Assembly (NCBI GenBank): GCA_964016885.1
Contig: OZ024766.1
Span: 1 to 64,000 of the forward strand
DNA from: Eledone cirrhosa
Taxonomy: Eukaryota
Reading direction: 5' to 3'
Length of the DNA: 64,000 bases
Every line of letters begins with the position of its first letter. The first letter of the stretch is position 1. Shown here in pieces: positions 58,504 to 64,000 of the stretch. Under the pieces are notes generated by a model. It had not been told where the DNA came from. It saw only the letters and a list, made by a program, of their open reading frames with translations, and searched no databases. Made by a program: the position numbers and the translations under genes.

Positions 58504-59148
58504 CTAAGTTGTCACCACAATATCTAAGTTGTCACCACAATATCTCAGTTGTCACCACAAAATCGAAGTTGTCGCCACAAAATCGAAGTTGTCACCACAA
58601 TATCTAAGTCGTCACCTCTATATCGAAGTTGTCACCACAAAAATCGAAGCTGTCACCACAAAATCGAAGTTGTCGCCACAAAATCGAAGTTGTCACAACA
58701 ATATCTAAGTCGTCACCACAAAAATCGAAGTTGTCACCACAAAAATCGAAGTTGTCACCACAATATCGAAGTTGTCACCACAATATCTAAGTTGTCACCA
58801 CAAAAATCGAAGTTGTCACCACAAAAATCGAAGTTGTCACCACAGAATCGAAGTTGTCACCACAATATCCAAGTTGTCACCACAGAATCGAAGTTGTCAC
58901 AACAATATCGAAGTTGTCACCACACAATATCTAAGTTGTCACCACACAATATCTAAGCTGTCACCACACAGAATCTAAGTTGTCACCACACAATATCTAA
59001 GTTGTCACCACACAATATCTAAGTTGTCACCACACAATATCTAAGTTGTCACCACACAGAATCTAAGTTGTCACCACACAATATCTAAGTTGTCACCACA
59101 CAGAATCTAAGTTGTCACCACACAATATCTAAGTTGTCACCACAATAT
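58504..59148. repeat. Minisatellite, 20-22 bp unit (TCTAAG/TCGAAG-TTGTCACCAC(AC)AATA), about 30 copies
   Basis: Direct inspection; ends 7 nt before the ATG at 59156. Confidence 0.95.
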
Positions 59149-59155
59149 TTTCAAT

Positions 59156-59206
59156 ATGGAGGTTTTGTCACCATTCTCATTGTTATTTTTGTTACAACTT
59201 CTCTGG
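59156..59206 (+). CDS. Hemocyanin-like gene, coding exon 1 (signal peptide, MEVLSPFSLLFLLQLLW)
   Basis: ATG at 59156, 17 hydrophobic codons, then a consensus donor TGG|GTAAGT (phase 0), 1.7 kb upstream of a hemocyanin functional-unit exon. Confidence 0.75.
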
Positions 59207-59317
59207 GTAAGTACAGCTTTCTGTTGTTGTTGTTGTTGTTGTTACTGTTGTTATTATTACTGTTGTTGTTGTTACTCTTCTTTTTCTTCTTCTTCTTCTT
59301 CTTCTTCTTCTTCTCAG

Positions 59318-59406
59318 TTGTTGCCCCAACATGGCCACTGTCATTATCCCACGTCTTTTTTTTTCTCTATTCCAGTTCCCAGAACGTGAAAAACTGATAG
59401 GAAAAG
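59318..59406 (+). CDS. Hemocyanin-like gene, coding exon 2 (either a 31-nt microexon 59376-59406, FPEREKLIGK, or 59318-59406 with one T too many)
   Basis: Strong donor AAG|GTGAGT after 59406 in phase 1 joins in frame to exon 3 (G+AG=Glu). Two polypyrimidine acceptors: (CTT)n-CTCAG|59318 and T9-CTCTATTCCAG|59376. Confidence 0.65.
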
Positions 59407-59619
59407 GTGAGTAATTCTATTTTCCAGGTTCAGGATTGGAGGGGGGGGGGTATCAACCCCGGGGGGTTATCTCTCCCTATTGGGGAACTTTTCATTGTTG
59501 TACTTTTCTTGTTTATTGTTATTGTTTTCCTATTTTTTACACAATTTCTGGGTAACGCCCCCCCCCGCCGCGTCTATTGTCCCCTTTATGTCGGCCCTTG
59601 TGGCTAATAAATGAAACCG

Positions 59620-59659
<40 letters not shown>

Positions 59660-60030
59660 GGGCGGTGGATTGGCAGAATCGGTAGAGGGTCGGATGCCAT
59701 GTTTTGCAGCACAGAGCTATGCCCCTTTACGTTGTGAGTTCAAATCTCGCCGAGGTTAACTTTGGCCTTTCATCCTTACGGAGTCGATAAAATGAAGTAC
59801 CAGTAATGCACTGGGGTAATTGCTGGCCTTGTGCCTAAAGTAGAAACAATTATTTGTGGCCTAGAGAATGATGGGTTGGCATTAGTCGGTAGAGCGTCTG
59901 ACACCAAGCTTTGCAGCATAGAGTTACATCTCTTTACCTTCTGAATTCTAATGCCGCCGAGGTTAGCTTTGCCTTTCATCCTTATGGGGGTCGTTAGAAG
60001 AAAAGAACGTACCAGTAATGTACGGGGGTC
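59660..60030 (+). mobile_element. Two SINE family 2 copies (tRNA-like head, GCCTTTCATCCTTACGGGGTCGATAAAATAAAGTACCAG core)
   Basis: Same core at 1720-1810, 44980-45160, 48180-48293, 50046-50166 (+) and 35515-35601, 56147-56268 (-). Confidence 0.85.
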
Positions 60031-60519
60031 CATTTCCTCTCTAATATATTTCTCCTCTACTATCCCAAGTATTGAGTGCTCAGGAATTCCTGATTGAAAG
60101 CCACCACTGATACTCTGCTCTGTGTTTTTTGTTGTTGTTATTTCCCACCACAAAGGGACCTGTGACAAACAGGCTGAACCCCCCCCCCCACATACACACA
60201 CGTGTATATTGTTATATATACACCCTCACACTATATATACACACACTCCCGAAAACCATATTCCAATATAATAGAATTTCTTTTACAACCCTACTGCTGC
60301 CATAGAATTTGTCTCTAGCTTACACTTCCCCACCCTCATTCGAACTCTTGACCAGTCAGTTAGCCCAATCAGATATATACACACGTATTTACAGAATATT
60401 TCCTTTGCCCCCCCCCCCCCCAAAAAAAAAAAACCCCAACAACAATAACAAAAACAACAACTTTGTTTTGTGAAGAAACACAACTACCCAACACTGCTGC
60501 TACTATTATGACTACACAG

Positions 60520-60556
<37 letters not shown>

Positions 60557-60697
60557 CACAAGGACTCATTAAAACAGTTTTATAAATAAATTTGACATAC
60601 CTTAAACTTTACAACTTCCATTTAAAAACAACTTTTTAAATGGAAGTTGTAAAGTTTAAGGTATGTCAAATTTATTTATAAAACTGTTTATATATTG

Positions 60698-60763
60698 TAT
60701 TTTGTCTGAAGAGGGCATACCATATTTTTAATATGATATCCCTGAAATATATATAATGAAATA
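60698..60763 (+). ncRNA. Minimal hammerhead ribozyme motif in intron 2 of the hemocyanin-like gene
   Basis: TATTTTGT-CTGAAGA-GGGCATACCATATT TTT AATATGATATCCCT-GAAA-TATATATA-ATGAAATA, preceded by a near-perfect palindrome at about 60572-60689. Confidence 0.75.
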
Positions 60764-60846
60764 AATATGGTTTTATAAATGTAGTTTCCATTTGTTTAAT
60801 ATCATATATATATACACTACCGTAAACTCTTGGTAGATTTATCTAC

Positions 60847-60896
<50 letters not shown>

Positions 60897-60912
60897 TTTT
60901 TCTTCCTTTCAG

Positions 60913-62031
60913 AGATGTTAACCCGAAAGAACAGTGCGTCATACTCCATTTCTCAGTTCGACAACATCGCTTTTATAATCAGCAATTTTGCCAACGATAA
61001 AGGTTTACATGGGTATCACAACTTCATGGAACACCACAAAAAAAGTACGAAACTTTGCTCGAAGACAGACGACGATGCGACTTGCACACCACGTGGGAAA
61101 GCAGCATATCTTCTTTGGAATAGACTTTACCTTTCACACATAGAACAAGCCTTGATCTCGTACGACGACAGCTTTCCTGGTCTCTTTTATTACGACTGGT
61201 TAGAAGGATTTAAACCGAGAGACGAACTTGTGACGTTCAGTGAGGTTTCGACTCGAATGAAGGACTTTCTTTTGGAGAGTATATTGTTGGCTCTTGAGCA
61301 AGACAACTACTGTCAGTTCGCCATTATGCTTCTAATGGCAAATGTGCAATATTTATTTTCCAGTGACCTCTACCCACCTAAATTAGACGACATATCCGTA
61401 AATCACATCGCGGTAAATGTTGATCGCATCTTCGCTCTGTGGGTACAAGTACAGAAGGACAGAGGCAAAAAACCGTCCATCGATTGTGCTTTTAACTTGA
61501 TTCCAATGACGCTTGTGCGTCATAGGAATCAACACGATATGAGGGAAGTGAACGCTGAACAGATGCGGTTGATCATGTCCGAGTCTACGCTAGGTTACAG
61601 TTACGATCAGATCAACCTAAAGGGAATGAACACCACGCAGTTGAGCCAGTTTCTACAGAAACGCCAGACGAAGGACAGGGTTTTCGCCAACTTTCGCCTT
61701 GACACAATCAAAACCTCGGTCAGCATCCAGGTATTTGTTTGTGTGCCACAGAAACATGGCGTGGAGGTGGTAGCCGACGACTGCAAATACAAAGCGGGCA
61801 AGTTTTTCGTCATGGGAGGGTTAGAAAGTAGTTGGGATTTCGGCTACCCTTATCTCTTCGAAATCACAAACGCGTTTAAAAACCTTGATATCCATTATCT
61901 CCATGATCACTACTACGTCTATGCAGATCTATACCACTTAAGAGGTCGTCGCTTACTCAATGACACCATACCTCGGCCCACCGTCTCGTACATCCCTGCG
62001 TCGGTGCCACTAAAGAAAGGACACAAACTTG
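60913..62031 (+). CDS. Molluscan hemocyanin-like functional unit exon (tyrosinase-like core plus beta-sandwich), copper ligands degenerate
   Basis: Open 373-codon exon with acceptor TTTTCTTCCTTTCAG and donor G|GTAAGT, phase 1 at both ends like hemocyanin linker introns. Motifs TRKN, GYH, WNRL, YYDW, LALEQDNYCQF, NVDRIFALW, YSYD, DRVFANF, AGKFFVMGG, IPRPT match the hemocyanin FU consensus. Confidence 0.92.
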
Positions 62032-62173
62032 GTAAGTAGTAAACTCTGCATCTGTTTCATTACTTGGAGTGTGGTGTGGTGTAGTGTAGTGTAGTGTGGT
62101 GTAGTGTGGTGTAGTGTGGTGTGGTGTAGTGTGGTGTGGTGTGGCGTGGTGTGGCGTGGCGTGGCGTGGAGAT

Positions 62174-62496
62174 TTTATGTCCGCTTTTCCCTGCTTGCAA
62201 GGGTGGGACAGGAACTGATTCTGGCTTGATTTCTACAGCTGGATGCCCTTCCTAACACCAACCTCATTTACAGTGAGTGCTGGGTGCTTTATGGCCGTGG
62301 CGCCTCCACGACCACTTTTCAGTTGAATGATAGGGACCCCAGTCCCTATCATCTCATTTCTACAGCTGAGTAAACTGGTGCAATGTGAGAATAAAGTGTC
62401 TTGCTCAAGGAAACAACACATCACCCGGTCTGAGAATTGAACTCCCAACCTTTCGATTGCAAGCCCAATGCTCTAACCACTAAGCCATGTGCCTCC
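62174..62496 (-). mobile_element. SINE family 1 in intron 3 of the hemocyanin-like gene (duplicate at 63042-63365)
   Basis: Full-length reverse copies, co-duplicated with the exon 3' end. Confidence 0.9.
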
Positions 62497-62597
62497 ATAT
62501 GCAGTAATTATATTGTATTGTATATTACATAAATATCTAATATATATTTGTGAAATGGGTGGTGGTTGAAATTCAGATGTGCACGGCTAAATGGTAG

Positions 62598-62841
62598 TAC
62601 AAAGCGGGCAAGTTTTTCGTCATGGGAGGGTTAGAAAGCAGTTGGGATTTCAGCTACCCTTATCTCTTCGAAATCCCAAACGCGTTTAAAAACCTTGATA
62701 TCCATTATCTCCATGATCCCTACTACGTCTATGCAGATTTACACCACTTAAGAGGTCATCACTTACTCAATGACACCATACCAGGGTCCACCGTCTCGTA
62801 CATCGCTGCGCCGGTGCCACAAAAGAAAGGACACAAAGTTG
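62598..62841 (+). pseudogene. Duplicated 3' fragment of the hemocyanin-like exon (pseudo-exon)
   Basis: Copy of 61788-62031 at +810 nt with 15 substitutions (12 nonsynonymous, 3 synonymous by hand count). In-frame TAG immediately upstream; donor retained. Confidence 0.85.
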
Positions 62842-63401
62842 GTAAGTAGTAAACTCTGCATCTATTTCATTACTTGGAGTGTAGTGTGGTGTAGTGTAGT
62901 GTAGTGTGGCGTAGTGTGGTGTAGTGTGGTGTAGTGTAGTGTAGTGTGATGTGGTGTGGTGTGGTGTAGTGTAGTGTAGTGTAGTGTAGTGTAGTGTAGT
63001 GTGGTGCGGTGCGGTGCGGTGCGGTGCGGTGCGGCGCGGCGATTTTATGTCCGCTTTTCCCTGCTTGCAAGAGTGAGACAGGAACTGATTCTGGCTTGAT
63101 TTCTACAGCTGGATGCCCTTCCTAACACCAACCTCATTTACAGTGAGTGCTGGGTGCTTTTTTGCCGGGGCACCTCCACGACCACTTTGCAGTGGAATGA
63201 TAGGGACCCCAGTCCCTATCATCTCATTTCTACAGCTGAGTAAACTGGAGCAATGTGAAATAAAGTGTCTTGCTCAAGGAAACAACACATCACTTGGTCT
63301 CAGAATTGAACTCACAACCTTTCGATTGCAAGCCCAATGCTCTAACTGCTAAGTCATATGCCTCCATATGGAGTAAATATATTGTGTTGTATATTACATA
63401 A

Positions 63402-63452
<51 letters not shown>

Positions 63453-63581
63453 AAAGTTCTATTTAAATTGTTGGGATACAACAAGCAAATATTTTTATAA
63501 CTGATATAAAGCACTCAACAAGTATTTGGAGTAAATATACAATATATTAACAAATGGAAACTATATTTATAAAACCATATT

Positions 63582-63646
63582 TATTTCATTATACATATTT
63601 CAAGGACACCAAGTTAAATTATGGTGTGCTTTCATCAGACAAAATA
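63582..63646 (-). ncRNA. Minimal hammerhead ribozyme motif (left arm, mirror copy)
   Basis: Reverse complement of 63750-63814 with few substitutions. Confidence 0.78.
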
Positions 63647-63749
63647 TAATATAGATCAGTTTTTAAATAAATATTGACATACCCTTAAAGAATGCAACCA
63701 TTTCTGTTGGAAGTATGTCAATATTTATTTATAAAACTGCTTTATATAA

Positions 63750-63814
63750 TATTTTATCTGATGAAAGCACACCTTAATTTAACTTGGTGTCCTTGAAATA
63801 TGTATAATGAAATA
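63750..63814 (+). ncRNA. Minimal hammerhead ribozyme motif (right arm of palindrome about 63545-63850)
   Basis: TATTTTAT-CTGATGA-AAGCACACC...GGTGTCCTT-GAAA-TATGTATA-ATGAAATA. Confidence 0.78.
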
Positions 63815-64000
63815 AATATGGTTTTATAAATATAGTTTCCATTTGTTAATATCGTATATATATATATTTTTTTTCCGAAGTTTGAAAGGTACAATGTGTG
63901 TTTGGATGGATAATAATTAATTTATTCACATGTCCTGTACTGATATTTGGAGATTAATATATAAAGGAACGATCGACTTTCGTCAAAACGGACCGAGGGA

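What the first reader, a model, noticed from the sequence alone, without database searches (positions are those of the whole stretch)
59156..62031. Secreted hemocyanin paralog with a dismantled dicopper site (candidate non-respiratory pseudo-hemocyanin)
Seen: an intact 373-codon FU exon with consensus splice sites and a signal peptide. Aligned by eye to the molluscan FU consensus, the CuA motifs change as FHG->EHHK (one His kept), CCxHG->CTPRG (His->Arg, thioether Cys->Thr) and PHWHR->LLWNR (His->Asn). The CuB motifs change as HNxxH->NVQYL (both lost) and HHSNVDR->IAVNVDR (lost). All six disulfide cysteines remain (KLC/TC, YC/DCA, VC/DC). The loop between YDW and LALEQ is much shortened, and NTT/NDT sequons are present. 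Established: O2 binding needs six His ligands. Inference: a maintained, secreted, copper-free protein with a new role (storage, egg/gland secretion, immunity, structure), analogous to arthropod hexamerins/cryptocyanins.
Basis: partly seen in the sequence, partly recalled or inferred. Interest (0 to 1): 0.85.

Follow-up and report, generated by a model that had tools for sequence, protein, structure and literature searches.

The report
Octopus three-unit hemocyanin offshoot, one copper-site
This octopus gene is a shortened, three-unit offshoot of the blue blood pigment hemocyanin, shared with other octopuses, in which two units have lost the histidines that hold copper while the third keeps them all, so it likely makes a secreted protein with a new job, most likely a phenol-oxidising enzyme.

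Summary
In detail: the 1,119-nt exon is a hemocyanin functional unit (FU-a) that keeps 1 of 6 copper histidines, lacks the thioether Cys, keeps all six disulfide Cys and has a ~36-residue deletion. But it is only the first unit of a longer gene that runs past the window to contig position 70466: six exons, 1,250 aa, units a-b-c, then a stop. FU-b keeps 1 of 6 His; FU-c keeps all six plus the thioether Cys, so the protein is probably not copper-free. Orthologs with the same design exist in Octopus vulgaris, O. bimaculoides and O. sinensis (45-63% identical by unit), auto-annotated as hemocyanin. All three units show purifying selection. The genome also holds five ordinary 7-unit hemocyanin genes. 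In FU-c the copper core is conserved while the shielding beta-sandwich has diverged (43% vs 16% identity to ordinary FU-c); FU-a shows the reverse. Best reading: a secreted latent phenoloxidase on two metal-free scaffold units (0.4). No expression or activity data. The closest precedent is the independently derived 3-unit Biomphalaria Hcl-1. New variant of a known kind.

The parts
59156..59206 (+). Exon 1: 17 codons from the ATG, hydrophobic leader (putative signal peptide), phase-0 donor
   Evidence: same 17-codon size as exon 1 of the C26 ordinary hemocyanin; aligns with the ortholog leaders and has Trp at residue 17 as they do
59376..59406 (+). Exon 2: 31 nt, rest of leader, phase-1 donor
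   Evidence: the C26 ordinary gene also has a 31-nt exon 2, the C1 genes 28 nt
60913..62031 (+). Exon 3: FU-a*, 1 of 6 Cu His, no thioether Cys, six disulfide Cys, ~36-aa deletion
62598..63413 (+). Partial tandem copy of the 3' end of exon 3 and the following intron; intronic, weak acceptor context, out of frame if spliced in
   Evidence: 15 of 243 coding nt differ; intron part 438 of 479 identical
62032..64000 (+). Intron 3 (phase-1 linker intron), running off the window end. The gene continues on contig C27, whose numbering equals the window's: exon 4 at 64422-64878 and exon 5 at 66651-67465 (FU-b*, 1 of 6 Cu His, shield Leu>Tyr); exon 6 at 69187-70466 (FU-c, all six Cu His, thioether Cys, gate Phe, diverged beta-sandwich, stop codon)
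   Evidence: locus L031 = C27:64001-74000

Best explanation
The gene is a selectively maintained, three-unit (a-b-c) hemocyanin offshoot of octopuses whose first two units have lost their copper ligands and whose third keeps a complete set, and it likely encodes a secreted, latent phenoloxidase. Shown: the six-exon 1,250-aa frame, the ligand pattern, orthology and purifying selection. Inferred: FU-c loads two coppers; its diverged beta-sandwich shield is loosened or cleaved so that o-diphenols reach the site and are oxidised to quinones (cross-linking of a secretion or defence); FU-a and FU-b are folded, disulfide-bonded, glycosylated scaffolds whose empty pockets are partly filled by Tyr. Lacking units d-f, it would not build the normal decamer wall. 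The architecture is about 0.9 sure; the stated confidence is for the oxidase mechanism.
For: Ligand table: FU-c 6 of 6 His plus Cys and Phe in 4 of 4 members; FU-b 1 of 6 in 4 of 4; FU-a 1 of 6 here, 2 of 6 in three Octopus species, 1 of 6 in an unnamed one. FU-c core vs sandwich identity to ordinary FU-c: 127/292 (43%) vs 15/96 (16%), p=4e-7; 44-45% vs 26-28% in three orthologs, p=0.002-0.005. FU-a shows the reverse: 32% vs 53%, p=3e-4. The shield Leu, present in 9 of 9 ordinary FU-c rows, is Met or Phe in the family. Pfam finds no beta-sandwich in this FU-c. The models keep the hemocyanin fold: FU-a pLDDT 78, TM 0.79 to squid hemocyanin; FU-c pLDDT 84, TM 0.83-0.84. Hemocyanins turn into phenoloxidases when placeholder residues are dislodged (PMC5219038 section 13). 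The beta-sandwich is described as the shielding domain (PMC11803259 passages). Units a-f form the wall (PMC10286996 passage). Five ordinary 7-unit genes remain for oxygen transport.
Against: No expression, protein or activity data. The Glu and Asn near CuB that favour catalysis (E178, N182) are also invariant in ordinary units, so they do not discriminate. Phe at the shield position in Octopus is bulkier than Leu and could block the site more. Ordinary sandwiches also drift somewhat faster than cores (74% vs 54% in one control, p=2e-4), and a terminal unit may diverge simply through lost neighbour contacts. FU-c has lost a disulfide Cys of the core. The leader has no clear cleavage motif.
Confidence: 0.4

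Rival explanations
1. Single-site oxygen store: FU-c binds O2 reversibly and non-cooperatively in a local compartment (egg fluid, embryo or gland), with a and b as inert bulk.
For: All hemocyanin site residues are kept in FU-c, gate Phe included, and a hydrophobic residue still occupies the shield position. The FU-c model matches hemocyanins far better than tyrosinases (TM 0.83-0.84 vs 0.68 at most).
Against: Losing two of three sites is costly for an O2 store. Five ordinary genes exist. The shield domain is the most diverged part.
Confidence: 0.2
2. Hexamerin-like storage or structural protein; FU-c copper serves as a metal store or is incidental.
For: Two units are dismantled in all members while fold and disulfides are kept. 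The family evolves fast (stem 0.97 changes per site). Nine sequons. The same idea was raised for Biomphalaria Hcl-1 (PMC5201427 Discussion).
Against: FU-c has kept six His, the thioether Cys and the gate Phe while about half of its other residues changed; a pure storage role does not predict that.
Confidence: 0.2
3. Accessory or regulatory subunit that co-assembles with, or caps, ordinary hemocyanin decamers through its a-b-c surfaces.
For: FU-a keeps its sandwich better than its core. FU-a to FU-c mediate decamer stacking in a gastropod model (PMC10286996 passage).
Against: Only 37-44% identical to the C1 ordinary units, with a 36-residue deletion in FU-a.
Confidence: 0.1
4. A once-functional gene now decaying in this species.
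For: This species' branch is long (FU-a 1.04 vs about 0.34 on the Octopus side; FU-c 0.75 vs about 0.3). It lost the second CuA His and a sequon that the orthologs keep. A partial exon duplicate sits in intron 3.
Against: Six exons are in frame with GT-AG sites. Deeply conserved sites are kept far more than variable ones (FU-a 46 of 59 vs 41 of 111, p=4e-7). Neutral simulation leaves the frame open in 1 of 2,000 runs at 0.05 and 0 of 2,000 at 0.1 substitutions per site. In 5 of 5 polarisable differences between the exon and its intronic copy, the exon keeps the old residue (7 of 12 not polarisable).
Confidence: 0.07

Closest known systems
Octopus database proteins CAI9743244.1 (O. vulgaris), XP_052833582.1 (O. 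bimaculoides), XP_036354573.1 / A0A7E6EGY5 (O. sinensis, partial)
   Same: Orthologs: same a-b-c architecture and length (1,271-1,272 aa), same deletion and His losses, intact FU-c; one clade with support 100 in each unit. The O. vulgaris protein's best matches in this genome are at this locus.
   Different: Named only 'hemocyanin subunit 1' or 'hemocyanin G-type-like' by annotation pipelines. Their FU-a keeps two His; their a-b linker is much more basic (12-13 vs 6 Lys/Arg).
Biomphalaria glabrata hemocyanin-like 1 (Hcl-1), albumen gland and egg mass fluid
   Same: Three units, about 150 kDa, signal peptide, canonical His replaced, non-respiratory role proposed (PMC5201427).
   Different: Units a, b, h with one His replaced in each, in a snail that uses hemoglobin. 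Here: units a, b, c, two sites nearly erased, one intact, beside five ordinary hemocyanin genes. The tree places the two apart, and placement outside cephalopods is rejected (AU p=1e-68): independent origins.
Nautilus-type 7-unit octopus hemocyanin (Oda-Odg)
   Same: Fold, phase-1 linker introns, two leader exons, an internal FU-b intron at the matching place, unit order a-b-c.
   Different: Three units instead of seven; at most one dicopper site; units d-g absent.
Type-3 copper pro-enzymes with a C-terminal shield (fungal pro-tyrosinases, plant catechol oxidases)
   Same: Copper core with thioether plus shielding beta domain (PMC11803259 passages); FU-c has an FLPWHR-type motif (its likeness to tyrosinases is recalled, not tested).
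   Different: Distant (at most 23% identity in the listed structural hits, TM 0.47-0.68); FU-c derives from hemocyanin; activity untested.
Arthropod hexamerins, cryptocyanins, pseudo-hemocyanins
   Same: Hemocyanin-derived proteins that lost copper His (PMC5201427 Discussion; otherwise recalled).
   Different: A different protein family (arthropod type); an analogy only, and only for units a and b.

Membership tests
Molluscan hemocyanin gene family (descent) | Tandem units of tyrosinase core plus PF14830 beta-sandwich | tested here: met
   Pfam, PDB and fold matches; the FU-c sandwich is below Pfam detection here, but O. vulgaris and O. bimaculoides give 3 stretches
Molluscan hemocyanin gene family (descent) | Phase-1 introns between units; units group with a, b, c | tested here: met
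Respiratory molluscan hemocyanin | 7-8 functional units | tested here: not met
   Three units, then a stop; no further unit in contig positions 1-264,000, apart from one 200-N gap
Respiratory molluscan hemocyanin | Six His and a thioether Cys in every unit | tested here: not met
   1, 1 and 6 of 6 in units a, b, c
Respiratory molluscan hemocyanin | Decamer assembly and cooperative O2 binding | not testable with these tools
   wall units d-f are missing; no biochemical data
Hexamerin-like copper-free pseudo-hemocyanin | No complete copper site in the protein | tested here: not met
   FU-c complete in 4 of 4 members; read contigs match the exon with 0 differences
Planorbid Hcl-1 | Orthology; units a, b, h | tested here: not met
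Catechol oxidase / tyrosinase (function) | Complete type-3 site with Glu and Asn beside CuB | tested here: met
   H46, C64, H66, H75, E178, H181, N182, H185, H212 of FU-c; also true of ordinary hemocyanin units
Catechol oxidase / tyrosinase (function) | Accessible or activatable site and measured phenol oxidation | tested here: inconclusive
   Shield domain diverged and Leu replaced; model coordinates could not be inspected; activity untested
Secreted protein | Cleavable signal peptide | tested here: inconclusive
   Hydrophobic leader in exons matching the ordinary signal exons; no predictor available, no clear cleavage motif

The most novel reading that the evidence does not exclude
Octopuses turned their respiratory pigment back into an enzyme: a truncated hemocyanin whose third unit is a dedicated phenoloxidase carried on two dead scaffold units, used to cure a secretion such as egg cement, and convergent with the three-unit egg-fluid protein of planorbid snails.
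Probability: 0.25. Interest if true: 0.85.

Novelty: new variant of a known kind. Interest (0 to 1): 0.58.

Why it matters
Cephalopod hemocyanins are treated as 7-8-unit oxygen carriers. This is a conserved octopus paralog with a different design, hidden in databases under ordinary hemocyanin names, in animals that still depend on hemocyanin for breathing. It offers a natural experiment on what separates an oxygen carrier from an oxidase at a type-3 copper site: the same polypeptide holds a unit that kept the shield and lost the site, and one that kept the site and changed the shield. It also suggests that repurposing as a three-unit protein happened at least twice in molluscs.

Tried and rejected
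Expression: no RNA holder was listed; the 3 runs found behave as genomic DNA of one sample. Expression is left open. Published octopus data: three family peptides were found in 0 places, and the O. sinensis accession in 0 places, in the ink-proteome supplement, which was cut when stored. The skin-mucus supplement could not be read and may bear on tissue. Hemocyanin terms gave 0 hits in the O. maya oviducal-gland paper's text and 5 small supplements and in a Paroctopus supplement. Orthologs outside octopods: none among 41 representatives (each checked against family and ordinary queries), 2 longer hits or 52 shorter hits (8 of them were read). These searches are not exhaustive: the representative search did not even list the Octopus orthologs. 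Age of the duplication: 7 of 8 placements were not rejected; the all-unit tree is the quick version, and long branches may mislead. dN/dS against orthologs was not possible without their DNA; against own paralogs dS is saturated or 2.6-3.6 with dN about 0.6, which says little about recent selection. A further last exon was sought and not found. ESM Atlas gave only generic tyrosinase clusters. Earlier scan findings: none. A residue-level structural alignment of FU-a was not obtained, so the position of His164 is open. Assembly artefact was rejected (and orthologs).

Full report
Observation. The window is the first 64 kb of contig C27 of a 3.0-Gb genome whose genes group with octopus sequences. 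The exon at 60913-62031 is 1,119 nt, open, and flanked by AG/GT in phase 1. Two small upstream exons (59156-59206, 59376-59406) give a hydrophobic leader in frame. Pfam finds the hemocyanin beta-sandwich (E 4e-21) and a tyrosinase core below its cut-off (19.1 vs 22.6 bits). The best PDB stretches are FU-a of squid, abalone and apple-snail hemocyanin. The model shows a continuous helix there (162-182); I could not inspect coordinates. Read contigs from 3 of 3 runs of one sample, perhaps the assembly's source, match most of the exon without differences.

The whole gene. Neighbouring stretches show three more exons beyond the window, in the same numbering: 64422-64878, 66651-67465 and 69187-70466. 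All six exons join with GT-AG sites into 1,250 codons and one terminal stop. A profile of all units finds nothing else in positions 1-264,000 except an intronic partial copy of exon 3 (one 200-N gap). A tree of 73 units assigns the three units to a, b and c (quick tree). FU-b keeps 1 of 6 His. FU-c keeps all six, the thioether Cys and the gate Phe, and its exon is matched by read contigs with 0 differences. The same genome carries five ordinary 7-unit genes, three on C1 and two on C26. The leader exons here are 51 and 31 nt, the same as in the C26 gene and unlike C1 (39 and 28 nt), a hint of C26-type descent or of the ancestral state.

Relatives. Searches found full-length orthologs in O. vulgaris (1,271 aa) and O. 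bimaculoides (1,272 aa), a partial one in O. sinensis, and three unnamed fragments. They share the deletion and the losses where they cover them. Identity to this gene is 45-47% in FU-a, 62-63% in FU-b and 50-52% in FU-c. The O. vulgaris protein's three best matches in this genome are at this locus. The family forms a clade with support 100 inside the cephalopod a, b and c groups, apart from Biomphalaria Hcl-1. In a concatenated 12-taxon test only placement outside cephalopods was rejected; 7 of 8 topologies were not, so the date of origin is open. The 'squid-like' and 'gastropod-like' labels of unnamed rows are my inference from similarity. No ortholog outside octopods turned up, but these searches are not exhaustive.

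Selection. Among sites where the Octopus orthologs agree, this gene keeps 46 of 59 deeply conserved vs 41 of 111 variable sites in FU-a (p=4e-7), 106 of 118 vs 32 of 76 in FU-b and 76 of 85 vs 50 of 116 in FU-c. Neutral substitution leaves the frame open in 5.3% of 2,000 runs at 0.02, 1 of 2,000 at 0.05 and 0 of 2,000 at 0.1 substitutions per site; very recent decay is therefore not excluded. The intronic copy differs from the exon at 15 of 243 nt (3 synonymous, 12 not). Read by eye against the alignment, 5 of the 12 can be polarised, and in all 5 the exon keeps the older residue (sign test about 0.03). Against this: the branch of this species is about three times as long as the Octopus side in FU-a and over twice as long in FU-c, and FU-a here lost a His and a sequon that the orthologs keep.

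Mechanism. The pattern of divergence differs by unit. FU-a is 32% identical to ordinary FU-a in the core and 53% in the sandwich. FU-c is 43% in the core and 16% in the sandwich (26-28% in three orthologs). Ordinary FU-c controls show a smaller tilt towards faster sandwiches (77/74, 74/64, 74/54%). The Leu that I take as the shield residue (identification recalled from the Odg structure, not from a call) is Tyr in FU-b of 4 of 4 members and Met or Phe in FU-c. Both models keep the hemocyanin fold. Hemocyanins gain phenoloxidase activity when placeholder residues are dislodged (PMC5219038, section 13), the sandwich is the shielding domain (PMC11803259 passages), and units a-f form the wall (PMC10286996 passage). 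I therefore infer a secreted, non-decameric protein with one latent oxidase site on two metal-free scaffolds (0.4). Rivals are a single-site O2 store (0.2), a storage or structural protein (0.2), an accessory subunit (0.1) and recent decay (0.07). No tool result shows expression, copper or activity.

Comparison with what is known. Hcl-1 of Biomphalaria has three units (a, b, h), each with one His replaced, and is made in the albumen gland and deposited in egg fluid (PMC5201427: abstract, first parts of Results and Discussion). That makes His-deficient three-unit hemocyanins a known kind. The octopus family differs in units, in keeping one complete site, in coexisting with respiratory hemocyanin, and in origin. 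A paper that reconstructed octopus hemocyanin genes names only Type-A and Type-R in the section I read (PMC7931591: passages and section 11). The O. sinensis accession appears as two rows in a supplement list of a polyphenol-oxidase phylogeny and not in its main text. Ten library searches (listings seen) showed no description of this family. The library lacks most subscription papers, and some supplements were cut or unreadable (PMC10142993: passages and cut supplement; PMC11431876: listing only; PMC8976471: term search and supplements; PMC12607849: supplement search).

Verdict. Observation confirmed; interpretation partly supported, since the protein is not free of copper sites. New variant of a known kind; interest 0.58.

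Noticed in passing
G000:C1:173.74-173.79 Mb and 173.90-173.91 Mb; G000:C26:21.93-22.02 Mb: Five ordinary 7-unit hemocyanin genes in two types: three near-identical copies on C1, and two near-identical copies on C26 in divergent (head-to-head) orientation; C1 and C26 types are about 61-77% identical by domain.
   Followed up: partly
window 62598-63413: Tandem duplicate of the last 243 coding nt of exon 3 plus intron, 91-94% identical, apparently non-functional.
   Followed up: yes
window 58504-59148: A 20-22-bp minisatellite of about 31 copies ends 7 nt before the start codon, so it occupies the 5' UTR or promoter region.
   Followed up: no
window 60572-60689: Perfect 57-nt inverted repeat with a 4-nt loop in intron 2, in a very high-copy stretch; likely a MITE-type element.
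   Followed up: no
linker between FU-a and FU-b in P0002, P0004, P0005: Strongly basic linker in the Octopus orthologs (12-13 Lys/Arg in 27-28 residues; 6 in 23 here), a possible cleavage or matrix-binding segment.
   Followed up: no
P0008 (unnamed, 2,239 aa): Another hemocyanin-like protein whose FU-a lacks the thioether Cys and the first CuB His and groups with Biomphalaria Hcl-1.
   Followed up: no
G000:C27:100665-100864: 200-N assembly gap 30 kb downstream of the stop codon.
   Followed up: no
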